This document shows, piece by piece, positions 1-5,028 of a stretch of 13,955 nt of DNA (the first letter of the stretch is position 1; each line of letters begins with the position of its first letter). The translations under genes and the position numbers were made by a program. The DNA comes from Escherichia coli (GTDB lineage: Bacteria; Pseudomonadota; Gammaproteobacteria; Enterobacterales; Enterobacteriaceae): assembly GCF_003334765.1 (NCBI RefSeq), contig NZ_QOWT01000055.1, one strand, 5' to 3'. Below the pieces are notes generated by a model that saw only the letters and a program-made list of their open reading frames with translations, made no database searches and was not told the DNA's origin.

Positions 1-453
1 CACCGGGGACATCAGCAGGTGCTGTTTGTGGTGACGCAGGCCGACAAAACGGAGCCCTGCCATGAATGGGATATGGCAGGTATTCAGCCTTCTCCCGCAC
101 AGGAACAGAACATTCGTGAGAAAACAGATGCGGTATTCCGGCTGTTCCGGCCCGTACATCCGGTTGTGGCCGTATCGGCCCGCACCGGCTGGGAACTGGA
201 TACGCTGGTCAGTGCGCTCATGACAGCACTTCCCGACCATGCCGCCAGTCCCCTGATGACCCGCCTGCAGGACGAGCTGCGCACGGAGTCTGTCCGGTCT
301 CAGGCCCGTGAACAGTTTACCGGTGCGGTGGACCGGATATTTGACACGGCGGAGAGCGTCTGCATTGCCTCTGTTGCACGCACGGTTCTGCGCGCCGTCC
401 GTGACTCGGTGGTCTCTGTTGCCCGCGCGGTATGGAACTGGATTTTCTTCTGA
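1..453 (+). CDS. GTPase of the YeeP/YfjP/YkfA family (3' portion; 5' end upstream of window)
   Basis: Frame is open from base 1 (HRGHQQVLFVVTQADK...) to TGA at 451-453. Tail resembles from memory the C-terminal region of CP4-prophage GTP-binding proteins, and it sits directly upstream of a DUF932-type gene as yfjP does before yfjQ. Confidence 0.6.
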   Translation, partial: HRGHQQVLFVVTQADKTEPCHEWDMAGIQPSPAQEQNIREKTDAVFRLFRPVHPVVAVSARTGWELDTLVSALMTALPDHAASPLMTRLQDELRTESVRSQAREQFTGAVDRIFDTAESVCIASVARTVLRAVRDSVVSVARAVWNWIFF

Positions 454-670: not shown

Positions 671-3067
671 ATGCACGAAAAGAACATCGCCCTGCTTTGT
701 GATGAAGCCGACCGACTTTTGCAACTGAACATTAATCTGCTCCGGCAAATGGTTGAGGAGCCAGATGTGTTATCTGACAGTAAGAACGAAAACAGACTGC
801 TTTTTGATAAACAGAAAGCACTGAAAAGAATTGAGGAGCTGGAGGGCGAACAAATCAAAACCGCCCGCAGGGAGATGGTGCTGGCTGTTGTCGGCACGAT
901 GAAAGCAGGCAAATCAACCACCATCAATGCCATTGTGGGGCAGGAAATTCTGCCTAACCGTAACCGCCCCATGACCTCTGTACCGACGCTCATCCGCCAC
1001 GTTCCCGGAAAAACTGAGCCGGTTCTCCATCTGGAACATATTCAGCCTGTCCGCAATTTATTAATCACACTGCAGGAAAAACTCGCCACCCCGGCAGGAC
1101 AGCAGGTCGCACAGACCCTGCAGCAAACCGGGGATACCCGCGAACTGCTGGATATTCTGACGGATGATGGCTGGCTCAAAAATGAATACCACGGGGAGGA
1201 GGAAATCTTTACCGGACTGGCATCGTTAAACGATCTGGTTCGTCTTGCTGCGGCAATGGGGACTGAATTTCCTTTTGATGAATACGCAGAAGTGCAGAAA
1301 CTGCCGGTGATCGACGTGGAATTCAGCCATCTGGTGGGGATGGATGCATGCCAGGGAACACTCACACTGCTGGATACCCCCGGCCCTAATGAGGCCGGAC
1401 AACCGCAGATGGAAGTGATGATGCGGGATCAACTGCAGAAAGCCTCTGCGGTTCTGGCTGTGATGGATTACACCCAGATGAACTCAAAAGCGGATGAAGA
1501 CGTCCGTAAAGAGCTTAATGCCATTGCTGACGTATCAGCCGGCCGCCTGTTTGTACTGGTCAATAAATTTGATGAGAAAGACCGCAATGGCGATGGGGCA
1601 GATGCCGTACGCCAGAAAGTTCCGGCAATGCTGAACAGCGATGTGCTGCCCGCCTCCCGCGTTTATCCCGGATCCTCACGCCAGGCATACCTGGCTAACC
1701 GTGCGCTTCATGAGTTACGGAAAAACGGAACCCTTCCTGTTGATGAAGCCTGGGTCGATGATTTTATCAGAGGTGCCTTCGGTTGCATGAAAAAAGAATA
1801 CGTCTGTAAAGACAGTGAACTGGCAACTGAAGGGGCGACAGACCTGTGGGAAGGCTCACTTATCGATCAACTGATAACGGAAGTCATACAGAGCTCACAT
1901 TCCAGAGCTGCGGCACTGGCGGTTGACTCTGCCGCCGCAAAACTGATGCAGAATGCAGAAAATATCAGTGAATACCTGTTGTTACGCCATCAGGGGCTAC
2001 AGCAAAGCATTCAGTCACTGCAGTCGCATATCACCAGCCTGCTTGCGGATATCCGGGAAATCGCGGACTGTCAGGAGCAGATGACCACTGATGTCAGAAT
2101 GGCCATGGAGGAGATCGATACTAAAACCCGGGAATTACTGACGGGGGTCTGCACCTCACTGGAAGAGGAGCTGAATGACTATTTCAGAAGCGGTAAACGC
2201 AAAGAACAGCAAATGCTGGAGGAAGAAGACGCAGAACAACGAAGGTCTCAGTCCGGATTATGGGGGAAAATTTCTCAATGGTCCGGTATCAACAACCAGG
2301 GCCGGGAGGATTACAGGAAACGAGATTTTGCCCCGGACAGCCCCGAAATAAAATTCAGTGATCGCAGGGAAGCCCTTGAACTGATGACGCAAATCGAATC
2401 GACCGTGACCAGCCTGCACCGTGAGGCTGAAGCACAGTTCCGGCCTGAGCTGGAGAAAATCGTCAGCGGGATTGAAACAGGTTTTCGTGGCACGGCCCTG
2501 TACGCCACAGAAAACATTGCCGGTCGCATCAATGCCCGCCTGGAGGATGAGGGCTTTACCGTAAAAATCAGTTTTCCGGCAGTCAGCCAGTTACAGACCC
2601 GGCTCGCGGTAAAAATAAATCTGAGTGCGCTTATGGAGGAAAGAACGGAGACCGTCACCCGTCGCCGTCGGCAGAGTGGCGTATGGGGAACCGTTTGTCG
2701 ATGGTTTGGCACCAGTGACCTGGGCTGGGAAAACTATGACGAGGATGTGAGTCGCAGCGTGATCAATATCAACAAGGTCAGAGAGGAAGTTATGTCACTG
2801 ACCCGGGCATATTTCGGGGAGCTGCAGGCATCCATTGAGCAGGATATTAACCAGCCCGTCCGCCAGGAAATCGATGCCTTTTTCTGCGCATTCAGGGAGA
2901 AAGTTGAACAACTGCGTAACACGCTGATTCAGAGCTCTGAGGATCATAAACGCGATCAGCAGGCGCAGGAACGACTTACCGGGCGACTTCAGGCATTAAA
3001 TGAAAGGGTTCCTGAGCTCATTACTGACAGTAAGGCGCTGAGGGAAGAGCTGGAGACAATGCTGTGA
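671..3067 (+). CDS. Dynamin-like large GTPase, CrfC/YjdA-like paralog (798 aa)
   Basis: RBS AGGAAGG about 8 nt before ATG 671. P-loop GTMKAGKST encoded at 893-919, DTPG at 1373-1384, NKFD at 1562-1573, followed by a ~500-aa largely helical region. Collinear from memory with CrfC (…GTMKAGKSTTINAIVG…LPNRNRPMT…LTLLDTPGPNEAGQP…VLVNKFD…). Confidence 0.85.
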   Translation: MHEKNIALLCDEADRLLQLNINLLRQMVEEPDVLSDSKNENRLLFDKQKALKRIEELEGEQIKTARREMVLAVVGTMKAGKSTTINAIVGQEILPNRNRPMTSVPTLIRHVPGKTEPVLHLEHIQPVRNLLITLQEKLATPAGQQVAQTLQQTGDTRELLDILTDDGWLKNEYHGEEEIFTGLASLNDLVRLAAAMGTEFPFDEYAEVQKLPVIDVEFSHLVGMDACQGTLTLLDTPGPNEAGQPQMEVMMRDQLQKASAVLAVMDYTQMNSKADEDVRKELNAIADVSAGRLFVLVNKFDEKDRNGDGADAVRQKVPAMLNSDVLPASRVYPGSSRQAYLANRALHELRKNGTLPVDEAWVDDFIRGAFGCMKKEYVCKDSELATEGATDLWEGSLIDQLITEVIQSSHSRAAALAVDSAAAKLMQNAENISEYLLLRHQGLQQSIQSLQSHITSLLADIREIADCQEQMTTDVRMAMEEIDTKTRELLTGVCTSLEEELNDYFRSGKRKEQQMLEEEDAEQRRSQSGLWGKISQWSGINNQGREDYRKRDFAPDSPEIKFSDRREALELMTQIESTVTSLHREAEAQFRPELEKIVSGIETGFRGTALYATENIAGRINARLEDEGFTVKISFPAVSQLQTRLAVKINLSALMEERTETVTRRRRQSGVWGTVCRWFGTSDLGWENYDEDVSRSVININKVREEVMSLTRAYFGELQASIEQDINQPVRQEIDAFFCAFREKVEQLRNTLIQSSEDHKRDQQAQERLTGRLQALNERVPELITDSKALREELETML

Positions 3068-4467
3068 CTTCACCATTTATTCAACAAATTGCTGATAACC
3101 GGGTATGTCAGGTACTCACCTGTCTTCCTGAAAAATTTGTGGTTGATTTCGCAAACGGAATCGATGTTGCACAGGAGCATATCCGCACGGCCGGAGAGCG
3201 CACGTTCTTCCGGCGTTTAAAAGAGGGGCTGACCGGCGAAGGCGCTGCACGGCAGAATGCCATCAATGCGTCGCTTGCACAGGGCGTTGAGGCGTCCCTG
3301 CGCTGGCTGACGGAGATGACAACGTCACTTGCCACCACAAACTACGCGATTACCCAGGTAAACGACAGGGTCAGTTCACTGGTCAGTGATACAGCCAGGC
3401 TGGCGCATTATTCCGCAGATACGCGGGAGCAGTTACTCACCCTGGCCGATCAGGTTCACCATAAACTGAATCATCTTGAAGAAAAACTCCACCGTGTTGA
3501 CCAGGTTCAGCGGGCGCAGTTACATCTTGAGCAGATATTCTCATGGTGGAGCGCCGGGCGATATGCGTCATTTTCCCCTGCCGGACGTTGTTATGTGGCA
3601 CTTGAAGAGCTTCGCTGGGGCGCGTTTGGTGATGTGATACGTCAGGGCGAAACAGGCCAGGTTAACCAGCTACTGGATATTCTCAGACATAAAGCATTAA
3701 CGCAGATGGCACAGGAGAGTGGCGGTAGTGCAACCGTGCGTCTGAACACTCTGGACTGGCTTGGTGGTCAGGGCCGGGAGCAGGCAGATAACGAGTGGCA
3801 TGACGCGATTAACTGGCTGGGAGACTGGTGCAGTGAAGAGCAGCATCCGGTGACCCGTGTGCGCGACCCGGGCCGCCGGGGATACACAAAACACATGCTG
3901 CGTCTGCGGCGGGCCGGAGAGATAAACGGAGAACATGTCCCTGAAATTATTCTGCTCAACTCTCATGACGGTACCTCCAGCTACCAGATGCTGCCGGGTT
4001 ACTTCAGGTTCGTCTGCCAGAACGGGTGCGTCTGTGGCCAGTCTCTGGGGGAAGTGCGTGTTCCACACCGGGGAAATGTAGTGGAGAAAGTTATCGAAGG
4101 GGCTTACGAGGTGGTGGGCGTGTTTGACCGGATAGAGGAGAAGCGTGATGCCATGCAGTCGCTGGTCCTGCCGCCACCGGCACGCCAGGCGCTGGCACAG
4201 GCGGCACTGACTTACCGTTATGGTGACGAACATCAGCCCGTCACCACCGCCGACATTCTGACGCCGCGACGCCGGGAGGATTACGGTAAGGACCTGTGGA
4301 GCGCATATCAGACCATCCAGGAGAATATGCTGAAAGGCGGGATTTCCGGTCGCAGTGCAAAAGGAAAACGTATCCATACCCGGGCCATTCACAGCATTGA
4401 TACCGACATTAAGCTCAATCGCGCATTGTGGGTGATGGCAGAAACGATGCTGGAGAGCCTGCGCTGA
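3064..4467 (+). CDS. Partner protein, apparently chimeric: N-terminal ~260 aa of unplaced helical domain fused to a DUF932/UPF0380 (YfjQ/YafZ-like) C-terminal ~200 aa
   Basis: GTG start at 3064 overlaps the upstream TGA (GTGA, 3064-3067). C-terminal segment (…TRVRDPGRRGYTKHMLRLRRAGEI…EIILLNSHDGTSSYQMLPGYFRFVCQNG…KLNRALWVMAETMLESLR) matches my memory of YfjQ-family proteins minus their first ~70 residues. Confidence 0.7.
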   Translation: MTSPFIQQIADNRVCQVLTCLPEKFVVDFANGIDVAQEHIRTAGERTFFRRLKEGLTGEGAARQNAINASLAQGVEASLRWLTEMTTSLATTNYAITQVNDRVSSLVSDTARLAHYSADTREQLLTLADQVHHKLNHLEEKLHRVDQVQRAQLHLEQIFSWWSAGRYASFSPAGRCYVALEELRWGAFGDVIRQGETGQVNQLLDILRHKALTQMAQESGGSATVRLNTLDWLGGQGREQADNEWHDAINWLGDWCSEEQHPVTRVRDPGRRGYTKHMLRLRRAGEINGEHVPEIILLNSHDGTSSYQMLPGYFRFVCQNGCVCGQSLGEVRVPHRGNVVEKVIEGAYEVVGVFDRIEEKRDAMQSLVLPPPARQALAQAALTYRYGDEHQPVTTADILTPRRREDYGKDLWSAYQTIQENMLKGGISGRSAKGKRIHTRAIHSIDTDIKLNRALWVMAETMLESLR

Positions 4468-4548
4468 TGCCGTTTCCCTGAGTGAGGGAATCATTCAGCT
4501 TTCGTTCCTGAAAAACACACATTTATTTGTTATTTAAGGAGTTATCTC

Positions 4549-5028
4549 ATGAAAACCGTTTCTCAGAATACCCCCACAATTTATTCAGCTACAACACCAG
4601 AGAATAATCCGCCTCAGTTGGTTGCCAGCCTCGTCCCTGATGAACAGCGCATCAGCTTCTGGCCGCAGCATTTTGGCCTCATTCCACAGTGGGTGACCCT
4701 GGAGCCCCGTGTCTTCGGCTGGATGGACCGTCTGTGCGAAGACTACTGCGGTGGTATCTGGAATCTGTACACCCTGAACAACGGCGGGGCATTTATGGCA
4801 CCCGAACCGGATGACGATGATGGCGAAAACTGGGTACTGTTCAATGCCATGAACGGTAACCGCGCTGAAATGAGCCCGGAAGCCGCCGGCATTGCCGCCT
4901 GTCTGATGACGTACAGTCATCATGCCTGTCGTACGGAGTGTTATGCCATGACGGTCCATTATTACCGGCTGCGGGATTACGCCCTGCAGCATCCGGAATG
5001 CAGCGCCATTATGCGCATCATCGACTGA
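4549..5028 (+). CDS. Antirestriction protein, ArdB/KlcA family (YfjX/YafX-like), 159 aa
   Basis: RBS AAGGAG 7 nt before ATG. Acidic DDDDGE stretch and cysteine/histidine-rich C-terminus as I recall for this family; position before the RadC-like gene is as in CP4 islands. Confidence 0.75.
   Translation: MKTVSQNTPTIYSATTPENNPPQLVASLVPDEQRISFWPQHFGLIPQWVTLEPRVFGWMDRLCEDYCGGIWNLYTLNNGGAFMAPEPDDDDGENWVLFNAMNGNRAEMSPEAAGIAACLMTYSHHACRTECYAMTVHYYRLRDYALQHPECSAIMRIID

What the first reader, a model, noticed from the sequence alone, without database searches (positions are those of the whole stretch)
2239..2710. Internal duplication of a tryptophan-rich motif in the dynamin stalk region
Two copies of an R-rich/QSG-x-WG-x4-W-x-G element occur about 140 residues apart (…QRRSQSGLWGKISQWSGINNQGREDY… at ~2239-2300 and …RRRRQSGVWGTVCRWFGTSDLGWENY… at ~2662-2730), whereas I recall a single comparable W-rich segment in CrfC. 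Basic plus aromatic elements like this could be membrane-inserting paddles or nucleic-acid contact elements, and a duplication would distinguish this paralog.
Basis: seen in the sequence. Interest (0 to 1): 0.4.

Follow-up and report, generated by a model that had tools for sequence, protein, structure and literature searches.

The report
Two tryptophan-rich stalk-tip loops, dynamin-like GTPase
An E. coli island gene for a dynamin-like GTPase carries two related tryptophan-rich loops, probably at the tip of its stalk: one is a conserved family signature, the other is a swappable cassette found in about half of E. coli carriers, and both look like membrane-contact elements.

Summary
The 798-aa dynamin-family ORF (671-3067, +) has two related 26-aa segments, aa 523-548 (nt 2237-2314) and aa 664-689 (nt 2660-2737). 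They share 12/26 residues and lie 141 residues apart, well beyond chance.

K-12 CrfC/RdcA (36% identical) has only a degenerate copy 2 and no loop 1. But the two copies are not a feature of the paralog as a whole:
- **Copy 2** is the conserved signature (RRxSGxWGxxCxWFxTxDWGWExY) of a small proteobacterial family. Its gene always sits in a dynamin / RdcB-like / patatin-phospholipase operon.
- **Copy 1** lies in a loop that varies greatly in length and sequence. No homologue outside E. coli has the W-motif there, and about half of E. coli carriers have an unrelated Phe-rich cassette instead.

Both loops are sharp divergence hot spots in otherwise 95-100% identical E. coli alleles, and the cassette types recombine freely.

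The AlphaFold model is BDLP-like. Strand pairing suggests both loops sit at the stalk tip. They are the two best membrane-interface segments of the protein.

The best reading is that they are paddle-like membrane-contact loops. A rival is that they are variable recognition loops. Membrane binding, loop geometry and the origin of copy 1 remain untested. This is a new variant of a known kind and of moderate interest.

The parts
671..3067 (+). Gene for a 798-aa dynamin-family (BDLP-like) GTPase, an island paralogue of CrfC/RdcA
   Evidence: ORF list and translation. Pfam Dynamin_N, E 1.6e-17. NCBIfam CrfC model matches 1-797, 556 bits, below the 1146 cut-off. AF2 model has pLDDT 81, and Foldseek's best hits are BDLP 2j69 (E 6.5e-14), SynDLP, IniA and mitofusins. 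Annotated 'dynamin family protein' in 2,493 of 5,426 complete E. coli genomes.
881..1567 (+). GTPase domain (aa 71-299), including the P-loop GTMKAGKST
   Evidence: Pfam Dynamin_N covers aa 71-299. The P-loop and surrounding residues are invariant or nearly so in the 78-sequence family alignment.
2237..2314 (+). Copy 1 (aa 523-548), QRRSQSGLWGKISQWSGINNQGREDY: the 'type B' cassette of stalk loop 1
   Evidence: Scored 18.1 bits by the copy-2 HMM built from distant homologues. Low-confidence loop in the model, aa 528-549 at pLDDT below 50. Second-best interfacial 12-mer of the protein, -3.0 kcal/mol. Replaced by the unrelated cassette QPRERNAFAFFHDIFGTGNQHD in other E. coli alleles.
2660..2737 (+). 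Copy 2 (aa 664-689), RRRRQSGVWGTVCRWFGTSDLGWENY: the conserved family signature in stalk loop 2
   Evidence: Conserved in ~30%-identical homologues. Column counts among 73 distant homologues: W672 52, G673 55, F679 54, D683 53, W at 684 62, G685 70, E687 54. Modelled as strand 656-667, helix 671-679 (nt 2681-2707) and strand 686-699. Best interfacial 12-mer of the protein, -3.8 kcal/mol.
2231..2410 (+). Allelic divergence hot spot 1, covering loop 1 and the following strand and helix start
   Evidence: DNA identity to other E. coli alleles falls to 35-70% here, against 95-100% in most of the gene. Protein entropy peaks at aa 521-560. The cassette boundaries are sharp. dS is 0.4-1.2 here against 0.04-0.25 elsewhere.
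2651..2770 (+). Allelic divergence hot spot 2, covering loop 2
   Evidence: DNA identity is 73-85% to alleles L003 and L006. Entropy peaks at aa 658-700, with four cassette types a-d. dN/dS reaches 1.7 for type d against type b.
2345..2356 (+). Short beta-strand EIKF (aa 559-562), just after the conserved DFxPxxPxIxF element that follows loop 1
   Evidence: DSSP on the model and family consensus DFDPxxxxIxF. The only other non-GTPase strands are the hairpin 656-699, so by inference it pairs with that hairpin, which would bring the two loops together.
2636..2767 (+). Beta-hairpin with an inserted short Trp helix (aa 656-699) that carries copy 2
   Evidence: DSSP E656-667, H671-679, E686-699, with pLDDT about 67-78.
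3064..3852 (+). 5' 263 codons of the RdcB/YjcZ-family partner gene, overlapping the dynamin stop codon and truncated by a deletion
   Evidence: Window 1-3853 matches L001 11331-15183 at 99.6%. It is annotated 'diguanylate cyclase regulator RdcB family protein' and has Pfam PF13990 YjcZ in L007.
3853..4467 (+). 3' part of a DUF932 gene, fused in frame to the truncated RdcB-like gene
   Evidence: Window 3852-12212 matches L001 18038-26397. The 2,854 bp between the two matches are missing from the window; in L001 they hold the patatin-like phospholipase gene and two hypothetical genes. The junction was not found in any complete E. coli genome.

Best explanation
The two segments are related loops of the helical stalk of a BDLP-type dynamin-like GTPase, probably both at its tip.

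**Loop 2 (copy 2)** is a conserved strand / short Trp helix / strand element preceded by four arginines. It occupies the place where BDLP has its membrane paddle, namely the last tip element before the C-terminal return helix.

**Loop 1 (copy 1)** is a flexible, highly variable loop between the first two long stalk helices. In this allele it carries a sequence cassette derived from, or co-ancestral with, the loop 2 motif.

The most likely function of both is to sit in the membrane interface. The arginines would contact anionic lipid head groups and the Trp/Phe side chains would insert. This would dock the GTPase, with its RdcB-like partner and (in intact operons) a patatin-like phospholipase, onto the inner membrane.

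The two-copy look is not a family trait. It is one of several interchangeable loop 1 cassettes that E. coli alleles exchange by recombination.

**Shown:** the repeat, its distribution, the hot spots, the fold class and the operon.
**Inferred:** the tip location of both loops, membrane insertion, and the origin of the cassette.
For: - **Repeat is real:**
- **Fold is BDLP-like:** Foldseek hits 2j69 at E 6.5e-14, plus SynDLP, IniA and mitofusins.
- **Model topology:** long helices 447-507/511-527, 565-626 and 700-759. Loop 1 lies between the first two. Loop 2 lies in a hairpin (656-699) before the third. A strand at 559-562 has no possible partner other than that hairpin.
- **Interfacial ranking in this protein:** on the Wimley-White interfacial scale the two segments rank 1 and 2 of all 12-mers, at -3.8 and -3.0 kcal/mol. 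The next best is -1.1.
- **Interfacial ranking in the family:** loop 2 ranks first in 52/73 distant homologues and in the top three in 65/73. Loop 1 ranks second in all four E. coli island alleles tested (one Phe-rich type A, three type B variants).
- **Contrast with CrfC/RdcA:** it is reported as soluble (PMC6510439) and as lacking the typical membrane-binding motif (PMC6374313). It has no loop 1, and its loop 2 ranks only sixth.
- **Operon:** the gene is followed by RdcB-like and patatin-like phospholipase genes in E. coli islands, in an IncFII plasmid, and in all 9 proteobacterial loci that extend downstream.
- **Unit-level repeat:** profile-profile alignment of loop 1 + strand + helix against loop 2 + strand + helix gives probability 84% (E 7.6e-6). 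With distant homologues only it gives 50% (E 1.7e-4) in the same register. Controls give 5-6%.
- **Cassette behaviour:**
Against: - No experiment or coordinate-level analysis was possible.
- Copy 1 is modelled at pLDDT below 50, so its structural equivalence to copy 2 is unproven.
- Copy 2 conserves many polar and small residues (G, D, E, Y and a frequently conserved Cys). This is more typical of a folded mini-domain or a specific binding site than of a simple amphipathic anchor.
- Neither segment has a high helical hydrophobic moment.
- Loop 1 is not among the ten best interfacial segments in 27/73 homologues.
- The window allele has Leu at position 684, where 62/73 homologues have Trp.
- In this window the phospholipase gene is deleted, so the system may be non-functional here.
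Confidence: 0.55

Rival explanations
1. The two loops are variable recognition surfaces rather than, or as well as, membrane anchors. They would bind a changing partner such as a phage protein or an inhibitor, and their cassette diversity would reflect an arms race. This would resemble loop L4 at the stalk tip of the antiviral dynamin MxA.
For: - Both loops are the sharpest divergence hot spots in otherwise 95-100% identical E. coli alleles.
- At least three loop 1 types and four loop 2 types occur in nearly all combinations.
- dS in the loops is 3- to 10-fold above the rest of the gene, and dN/dS is raised, reaching 1.7 for loop 2 type d against type b.
- The operon sits in mobile islands and on plasmids.
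- WYL-domain regulators lie next to the operon in 3 non-E. coli loci.
- A transcriptome paper reports the operon strongly up-regulated in a lysogen and calls it a putative defence system (PMC12922286).
- The MxA L4 comparison comes from general knowledge and was not tested here.
Against: - No PADLOC model matches the operon convincingly.
- No defence phenotype is on record in the literature searched.
- Loop 2 is strongly conserved across distant homologues, which is not what a pure specificity determinant would show.
- dN/dS is mostly below 1, and the high dS points to imported old haplotypes rather than rapid point-mutation selection.
- Only six DNA alleles were compared.
Confidence: 0.25
2. 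The loops are docking sites for the operon partners. The Trp-rich element would bind the RdcB-like protein or the patatin phospholipase, coupling GTPase state to effector activity, in the way RdcA binds RdcB and DgcE.
For: - Copy 2 conserves many polar and small residues (G, D, E, Y) and a frequently conserved Cys, as a folded interaction module would.
- The strict dynamin / RdcB-like / patatin synteny suggests that the three proteins interact physically.
- RdcA is known to bind RdcB (PMC6510439).
Against: - Loop 1 is far too variable in length (4-83 aa) and sequence to be a conserved partner site.
- E. coli loop cassettes recombine freely, with no sign of a matching change elsewhere.
- CrfC/RdcA keeps its RdcB partner although its loop 2 is degenerate and loop 1 is absent.
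Confidence: 0.12
3. The resemblance of copy 1 to copy 2 is a functionless by-product, arising from chance, composition, or neutral drift in an unconstrained loop.
For: Loop 1 is unconstrained in the family in both length and sequence. DNA identity between the copies is only 59%.
Against: - The copy-2 HMM scores 18-25 bits on copy 1, against at most 3.8 bits in 5000 shuffles.
- The self-alignment lies 7.9 SD above shuffles.
- Several diverged type B variants (B, B', B'') all keep the RRxxSGLWG...G.E.Y skeleton.
- All E. coli loop 1 cassettes keep a high interfacial score despite being unrelated in sequence.
Confidence: 0.05
4. The basic-aromatic loops contact nucleic acid, as the first reader suggested as an alternative.
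For: Each motif is preceded by an Arg run. CrfC acts at replication forks (PMC6374313).
Against: - CrfC acts through a clamp-binding motif (41-QLALP) that is not conserved here. It aligns to ENRLL.
- CrfC itself lacks loop 1 and has a degenerate loop 2.
- The operon effector is a phospholipase.
- No nucleic-acid-binding domain was detected.
Confidence: 0.03

Closest known systems
BDLP (Nostoc punctiforme bacterial dynamin-like protein, PDB 2j68/2j69) and its paddle
   Same: It is the best structural match to the model (Foldseek E 6.5e-14). Both have an N-terminal helix pair, a GTPase domain and a long helical neck/trunk. Both have a hydrophobic element at the trunk tip just before the C-terminal return helix, which is the position of copy 2.
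   Different: Sequence similarity is confined to the P-loop region. BDLP's paddle is a helical hairpin (general knowledge). Here the element is a beta-hairpin with an inserted Trp helix, plus a second variable loop. The trunk seems to have three long helices plus an extended linker (aa 627-655) rather than four helices (inference).
CrfC / RdcA (YjdA) of E. coli K-12, with its partner RdcB (YjcZ)
   Same: It is the closest named family, with an end-to-end match to the NCBIfam CrfC model and 36% identity. Both have a downstream overlapping RdcB/YjcZ-family gene.
   Different: - The score of 556 bits is far below the 1146 equivalog cut-off.
- CrfC is 56 aa shorter, lacks loop 1, and has only a degenerate copy 2.
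- The clamp-binding motif 41-QLALP is not conserved here.
- K-12 rdcAB has no patatin gene downstream.
- RdcA is described as soluble (PMC6510439).
MxA loop L4 (stalk-tip loop of an antiviral dynamin)
   Same: Both are disordered loops at the tip of a dynamin-family stalk that are the most variable part of the protein. The comparison comes from general knowledge.
   Different: There is no sequence relationship. Variation here is by cassette exchange between alleles of one species, not by point substitutions between species. No antiviral function has been shown for this operon.
Other bacterial DLPs linked to defence or membrane surveillance: LeoA/LeoBC (Eleos) and B. subtilis DynA
   Same: All are dynamin-like GTPases on mobile islands. 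For DynA, membrane binding is reported as essential for phage defence (PMC12998192 title and abstract).
   Different: The PADLOC LeoBC model gives only E 8.6e-5 over 60 residues of the P-loop region, and LeoA gives no hit. The partner genes differ (RdcB-like and patatin), and there is a single GTPase head.

Membership tests
Dynamin superfamily, bacterial dynamin-like protein (BDLP-type) | Large GTPase domain of the dynamin type with a P-loop GxxxxGKS/T | tested here: met
   Pfam Dynamin_N covers aa 71-299, E 1.6e-17. The sequence GTMKAGKST is at aa 75-83 and is nearly invariant in the family.
Dynamin superfamily, bacterial dynamin-like protein (BDLP-type) | Helical neck/trunk (stalk) built from sequence on both sides of the GTPase domain; overall BDLP/mitofusin-like fold | tested here: met
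   AF2 model has pLDDT 81 and pTM 0.69. It has N-terminal helices 2-29 and 47-66 and long C-terminal helices. Foldseek's best hits are BDLP, SynDLP, IniA, mitofusin and Cj-DLP, all at probability 1.00.
Dynamin superfamily, bacterial dynamin-like protein (BDLP-type) | Membrane-binding element (paddle) at the stalk tip, and lipid binding | not testable with these tools
   Only indirect support is available. The two loops are the best interfacial segments, and their tip position is inferred from topology.
Dynamin superfamily, bacterial dynamin-like protein (BDLP-type) | GTP hydrolysis and nucleotide-dependent self-assembly | not testable with these tools
   This needs a biochemical assay.
CrfC / RdcA (NCBIfam NF007368, equivalog) | Score at or above the curated cut-off of the equivalog model | tested here: not met
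   556.2 bits against a cut-off of 1146, although the match runs end to end.
CrfC / RdcA (NCBIfam NF007368, equivalog) | N-terminal beta-clamp-binding motif 41-QLALP with the essential Q41 (PMC6374313) | tested here: not met
   In alignment A1, CrfC QLALP aligns with ENRLL of the window protein.
CrfC / RdcA (NCBIfam NF007368, equivalog) | Operon partner of the RdcB/YjcZ family immediately downstream | tested here: met
   An RdcB-family gene overlaps the dynamin stop codon in the window and in all related loci. In the window it is truncated.
CrfC / RdcA (NCBIfam NF007368, equivalog) | Activation of the diguanylate cyclase DgcE through its MASE1 domain | not testable with these tools
   This is a functional property described in PMC6510439.
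Dynamin / RdcB-like / patatin operon family (unnamed; defined here) | Conserved loop 2 signature RRxSGxWGxxCxWFxTxDWGWExY | tested here: met
   The window has RRRRQSGVWGTVCRWFGTSDLGWENY, which scores 54.6 bits against the HMM built from distant members. One deviation is L684, where 62/73 members have W.
Dynamin / RdcB-like / patatin operon family (unnamed; defined here) | Three-gene operon with a patatin-like phospholipase as the third gene | tested here: not met
   The patatin gene is present in L001, L003-L007, L018 and 9 proteobacterial loci. In this window it has been removed by a 2,854-bp deletion. The dynamin gene is a member by descent, but the operon here is incomplete.
Eleos (LeoA/LeoBC) anti-phage system | Significant match to the LeoA or LeoBC models | tested here: not met
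   LeoBC gives E 8.6e-5 and 19.8 bits over aa 29-89 only. LeoA gives no hit.

The most novel reading that the evidence does not exclude
The dynamin / RdcB-like / patatin operon is an anti-phage or stress-triggered membrane-attack system. In it, the two stalk-tip loops would be the variable sensing or targeting surface. E. coli would keep a library of loop 1 and loop 2 cassettes and shuffle them by recombination, a bacterial counterpart of the MxA L4 specificity loop. Copy 1 would be a loop 2 motif transplanted into loop 1 to change that specificity.
Probability: 0.2. Interest if true: 0.75.

Novelty: new variant of a known kind. Interest (0 to 1): 0.45.

Why it matters
About 46% of complete E. 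coli genomes (2,493 of 5,426) carry this dynamin-family gene. Its operon, with an RdcB-like protein and a patatin phospholipase, recurs across Proteobacteria and on IncF plasmids, yet nothing is known about its function.

This analysis picks out the parts of the protein most likely to decide where and on what it acts. These are a conserved Trp-rich element and a second, cassette-like loop. They are the only strongly polymorphic parts of the gene within E. coli.

That gives concrete handles for experiments, such as Trp mutants and cassette swaps. It also gives a structural reason why the chromosomal paralogue CrfC/RdcA is soluble and has a different job: it lacks loop 1 and has a decayed loop 2.

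If the loops turn out to be specificity determinants of a defence system, this would parallel the Mx proteins of vertebrate innate immunity.

Tried and rejected
- **DNA-level repeat or recent duplication: rejected.** The copies are 46/78 nt identical and no DNA repeat is reported.
- **Frameshift origin of the type A cassette from type B: no evidence.** The DNA alignment shows a sharp-edged replacement of about 90 bp with a 12-nt length difference. My own reading of the alternative frames of the type B sequence showed no resemblance to type A. This was not a tool result.
- **Diversity-generating retroelement: not tested and judged unlikely.** The replacement includes an indel, and no template repeat or reverse transcriptase lies next to the gene. 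The one RT seen, in L006, is annotated reverse transcriptase/maturase and lies several kb away.
- **Origin of copy 1 from E. coli's own copy 2: unresolved.** Copy 1 scores about equally against E. coli copy 2 and against copy 2 of distant homologues. One allele (L007) has a 17/18-nt identical run between the copies, which hints at micro-conversion but may be chance.
- **Simple hydrophobic-residue count in loop 1 against helical background: not discriminating** (4.7 against 4.8). It was replaced by the Wimley-White interfacial ranking.
- **Known defence system: none.** PADLOC gave only marginal hits.
- **First protein search:** it returned only near-identical E. coli sequences, so the representative search was needed for diversity.
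- **Genome scan:** its pattern was narrow and gave only 10 loci, so taxonomic breadth is under-sampled.
- **Literature searches:** searches for a described dynamin-patatin system found only a transcriptome note.
Full report
**1. The observation**

Window 671-3067 (+) is a 798-codon ORF. It contains QRRSQSGLWGKISQWSGINNQGREDY at aa 523-548 (nt 2237-2314) and RRRRQSGVWGTVCRWFGTSDLGWENY at aa 664-689 (nt 2660-2737). The two share 12 of 26 residues and start 141 residues apart. Five of the protein's eight tryptophans fall in these two stretches.

The similarity is not chance:
- The best local alignment between the two halves of the protein scores 82, against 37.6 +/- 5.6 (maximum 63) for 300 shuffles. 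It extends for about 90 residues beyond the motif.
- An HMM made only from copy 2 of distant homologues, with no E. coli sequence, scores copy 1 at 18.1 bits. In 5000 shuffles of the protein with copy 2 removed, the maximum was 3.8 bits.

At DNA level the copies are only 46/78 identical, and no DNA repeat is detected for them. The relationship is therefore old or protein-level only.

**2. What the gene is**

- Pfam finds Dynamin_N at aa 71-299.
- The NCBIfam CrfC equivalog model matches from end to end, but at 556 bits against a cut-off of 1146.
- Identity to K-12 CrfC/RdcA/YjdA is 36%.
- An AlphaFold2 model built on a 78-sequence family alignment has mean pLDDT 81.
- Its best matches among solved structures are BDLP (E 6.5e-14), SynDLP, IniA, mitofusins and the Campylobacter DLP pair.

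The gene occurs in 2,493 of 5,426 complete E. coli genomes, annotated 'dynamin family protein'. It sits in CP4-44-type islands. A small GTPase gene lies upstream. An overlapping RdcB/YjcZ-family gene and a patatin-like phospholipase gene lie downstream.

**3. Copy 2 is a family signature**

A search of 1.84 billion cluster representatives with the stalk half (aa 400-798) found only 251 clusters at E <= 1e-3. Most full-length members are 780-830 aa.

In homologues of about 30% identity, copy 2 is the best-conserved part of the stalk. Its consensus is TRxRRQSGxWGTxCxWFxTxDWGWExY. Among 73 distant members the counts are W672 52, G673 55, F679 54, D683 53, W at position 684 62, G685 70 and E687 54. 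The window allele has Leu at position 684.

A genome scan seeded on this motif returned ten loci, in Paraburkholderia, Gallionella, Pseudomonas, Thiodictyon, Methyloprofundus, Paenacidovorax, Marinospirillum, gamma proteobacterium HdN1 and an unclassified gammaproteobacterial MAG. All nine that extend downstream carry the same dynamin / RdcB-like / patatin operon. So does a 54%-identical homologue on IncFII plasmids of Klebsiella and Enterobacter.

**4. Copy 1 is an allele-specific cassette in a hypervariable loop**

Copy 1 lies between two conserved anchors, YFxxGK and DFDPxxPxIxF. Between these anchors the family varies from 4 to 83 residues (median 43), with no conserved sequence.
- None of the 73 distant homologues has the W-motif there. 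Of these, 53 have no Trp in the loop at all.
- The copy-2 HMM gives under 2 bits on any loop 1 outside E. coli.
- The plasmid homologue has SLTIFGTFFKTLTG at this site.

Within E. coli the site is polymorphic:
- **Type B (this window)** and its variants B' (QRRSRSGLWGKISQWSGINNPGWEDY) and B'' carry the W-motif.
- **Type A** (794-aa alleles) has QPRERNAFAFFHDIFGTGNQHD.
- **Type C** has QRISQQGIIGKIREQFSVSAPG.

Over a 271-nt segment around loop 1, 1,220 records of complete genomes are at least 80% identical to the window (types B/B'). Another 1,245 are only 60-80% identical, which is mostly type A in the records sampled. Roughly half of the carriers therefore have the two-copy look.

K-12 CrfC has essentially no loop 1. 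Its only counterpart of copy 2 is the degenerate SRWLNQPDWGRG. But the duplication marks a subset of alleles, not the paralogue.

**5. Both loops are recombination and divergence hot spots**

Six E. coli alleles are 95-100% identical in DNA over most of the gene. Identity falls to 35-70% at nt 2231-2410 and to 73-85% at nt 2651-2770. Protein entropy over 117 E. coli sequences peaks at aa 521-560 and 658-700.

The boundaries of the loop 1 cassette are sharp, and types A and B differ by a 12-nt indel. Loop 2 also has four types:
- a: GLWGKICGAFGTSDWGWETY
- b: GVWGTVCRWFGTSDLGWENY (this window)
- c: RQDGVWGTLCRWANTSDWGWKEY
- d: KDSFIGKICGWIGTKEWGWETY

Loop 1 and loop 2 types occur in nearly all combinations.

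Synonymous divergence in the loops is 0.4-1.2, against 0.04-0.25 elsewhere. dN/dS is 0.3-0.6, and 1.7 for type d against type b, compared with 0.1-0.2 for the rest of the gene. The pattern is that of old, diverged haplotype patches moved about by recombination, with relaxed or diversifying selection. It is not the pattern of a recent burst of point mutations.

**6. Is there an ancient duplicated unit?**

I aligned the family profile of unit 1 (loop 1, strand, long helix; aa 495-640) against unit 2 (loop 2, strand, long helix; aa 641-760).
- With all rows: probability 84%, E 7.6e-6 over 92 columns.
- With distant homologues only: 50%, E 1.7e-4, in the same register.
- Against another helical stalk segment (control): 5-6%.

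This is modest support for an old internal repeat in which the two loops are equivalent positions.

Copy 1 of type B is no closer to E. coli's own copy 2 than to copy 2 of distant members. I therefore cannot decide between two origins. One is a transplant of the loop 2 motif into loop 1 in an enterobacterial lineage. The other is retention of an ancestral state that was lost elsewhere.

In one allele (L007) the two copies share a 17/18-nt run, GG.TTATGGGGAAAGATTT, using rare Leu and Gly codons. This may be a small gene-conversion tract.

**7. Structure**

In the model, the stalk has helices 413-444, 447-507, 511-527, 565-626 and 700-759, followed by 763-797.
- Copy 1 follows helix 511-527 and is largely unmodelled (aa 528-549 at pLDDT below 50).
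- Copy 2 forms strand 656-667 (carrying the Arg run), helix 671-679 (WGTVCRWFG) and strand 686-699, at pLDDT about 67-78.
- A four-residue strand at 559-562 (EIKF) has no possible partner outside the GTPase domain except this hairpin.

I infer that the two loops lie side by side at the stalk tip. Copy 2 would then sit where BDLP has its paddle, the last tip element before the return helix (BDLP topology from general knowledge). The structural equivalence of the two motifs cannot be judged while copy 1 is at low confidence.

**8. Likely function**

On the Wimley-White interfacial scale, SGVWGTVCRWFG (-3.8 kcal/mol) and GLWGKISQWSGI (-3.0) are the two best 12-mers of the whole protein. The third best is -1.1. 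Each is preceded by an Arg run.

Across the family:
- Loop 2 ranks first in 52/73 distant homologues and in the top three in 65/73.
- Loop 1 ranks in the top three in 27/73 and is outside the top ten in 27/73.
- In all four E. coli island alleles tested (one type A, three type B variants), loop 1 ranks second, although the type A and type B cassettes are unrelated in sequence.
- In CrfC, loop 1 is missing and loop 2 ranks sixth.

CrfC/RdcA is reported as lacking the typical membrane-binding motif (PMC6374313) and as soluble (PMC6510439).

With a phospholipase as the operon's third gene, the most economical reading is that the loops are paddle-like membrane-interface elements. Against a pure anchor role, copy 2 conserves many polar and small residues and a frequently conserved Cys, and neither segment has a high helical hydrophobic moment.

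**9. Rivals**

The hot-spot behaviour, the mobile context, and WYL-domain regulators next to the operon in three loci keep open a second reading. So does a report that the operon is strongly induced in a lysogen and is a putative defence system (PMC12922286). In this reading the loops are variable recognition surfaces, as loop L4 is in MxA. PADLOC has no model for the system, and no phenotype is published in the library searched.

A role as a partner-docking site is possible for copy 2 but unlikely for loop 1. Nucleic-acid binding has no support. The CrfC clamp motif 41-QLALP aligns to ENRLL here.

**10. Verdict**

- **Observation:** confirmed.
- **Interpretation:** partly supported.
- **Classification:** a new variant of a known kind. 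It is a BDLP-type dynamin-like GTPase whose tip carries a conserved Trp-rich element plus a second, cassette-like loop that in this allele mimics the first.

In this particular window the operon is crippled. A 2,854-bp deletion fuses the RdcB-like gene to a DUF932 gene and removes the phospholipase. That junction occurs in none of the 5,426 complete E. coli genomes.

Noticed in passing
window 3064-4467 (junction at 3852/3853): The ORF after the dynamin gene is a chimera. The first ~263 codons are RdcB/YjcZ-family and are fused in frame to the C-terminal part of a DUF932 (YfjQ-like) gene. Compared with intact islands (L001), 2,854 bp are missing, including the patatin-like phospholipase and two hypothetical genes. 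The junction is found in 0 of 5,426 complete E. coli genomes, so it is either a rare deletion or an assembly artefact.
   Followed up: partly
window 2231-2410 and 2651-2770; loci L003-L007: These two stretches are the only strongly polymorphic parts of the gene among E. coli alleles. They show cassette-like replacement with sharp edges and raised dS, and loop types occur in free combination.
   Followed up: yes
window 1751-1870 (aa 361-400), against L005 (EDL933): A third, smaller divergence patch (60-73% DNA identity) is seen only against the EDL933 allele. It lies in the region just after the GTPase domain. Entropy also shows minor peaks at aa 361-400 and 441-480.
   Followed up: no
L007 2800-5193 (allele P0002), copy 1 against copy 2: The two copies share a 17/18-nt identical run (GG.TTATGGGGAAAGATTT, encoding GLWGKI) that uses rare TTA and GGA codons. 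It may be a micro gene-conversion tract between the two loops.
   Followed up: partly
window 2720-2722 (aa 684): The window's loop 2 has Leu where 62 of 73 distant homologues have Trp (DWGWE becomes DLGWE). This type b cassette is common in E. coli, in 38 of 117 clusters.
   Followed up: no
window 2696-2698 (Cys676) against 2273-2275 (Ser535): Copy 2 has a Cys that is invariant in the 20-sequence alignment (39/73 in the wider set, Lys in 20). The equivalent residue in copy 1 is Ser. The role of this Cys is unknown.
   Followed up: no
L010 3370-4302, L016 2702-3640, L015 769-1644 (-): WYL-domain transcriptional regulators, of the kind often found next to defence systems, lie directly upstream of the dynamin / RdcB-like / patatin operon in three non-E. 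coli genomes. Paraburkholderia (L008) instead has two small GTPases upstream, as E. coli has one.
   Followed up: partly
L018 (Klebsiella pneumoniae IncFII plasmid NZ_CP147596) 3666-7884: A 54%-identical copy of the whole three-gene operon is carried on conjugative IncFII plasmids of Klebsiella, Enterobacter and E. coli, flanked by IS1 and IS30 elements. Its dynamin ORF is annotated from an internal start and lacks about 50 N-terminal residues.
   Followed up: partly
L019 (E. coli plasmid NZ_CP098222) about 3700-5000: This is a decayed copy of the dynamin gene with several frameshifts, i.e. a pseudogene. It is unannotated in the record.
   Followed up: no
window 2311-2712 (-): A 133-codon ORF on the opposite strand overlaps the region between the two motifs. 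It lies inside a conserved protein-coding gene and was treated as spurious without a separate test.
   Followed up: no
window 19-453 (+): This 144-codon ORF is the C-terminal half of the YeeP-like 'GTPase family protein' that precedes the dynamin gene in intact islands. The window starts inside that gene. In strain UPEC_U013 the same 144-aa ORF is annotated alone as hypothetical.
   Followed up: no
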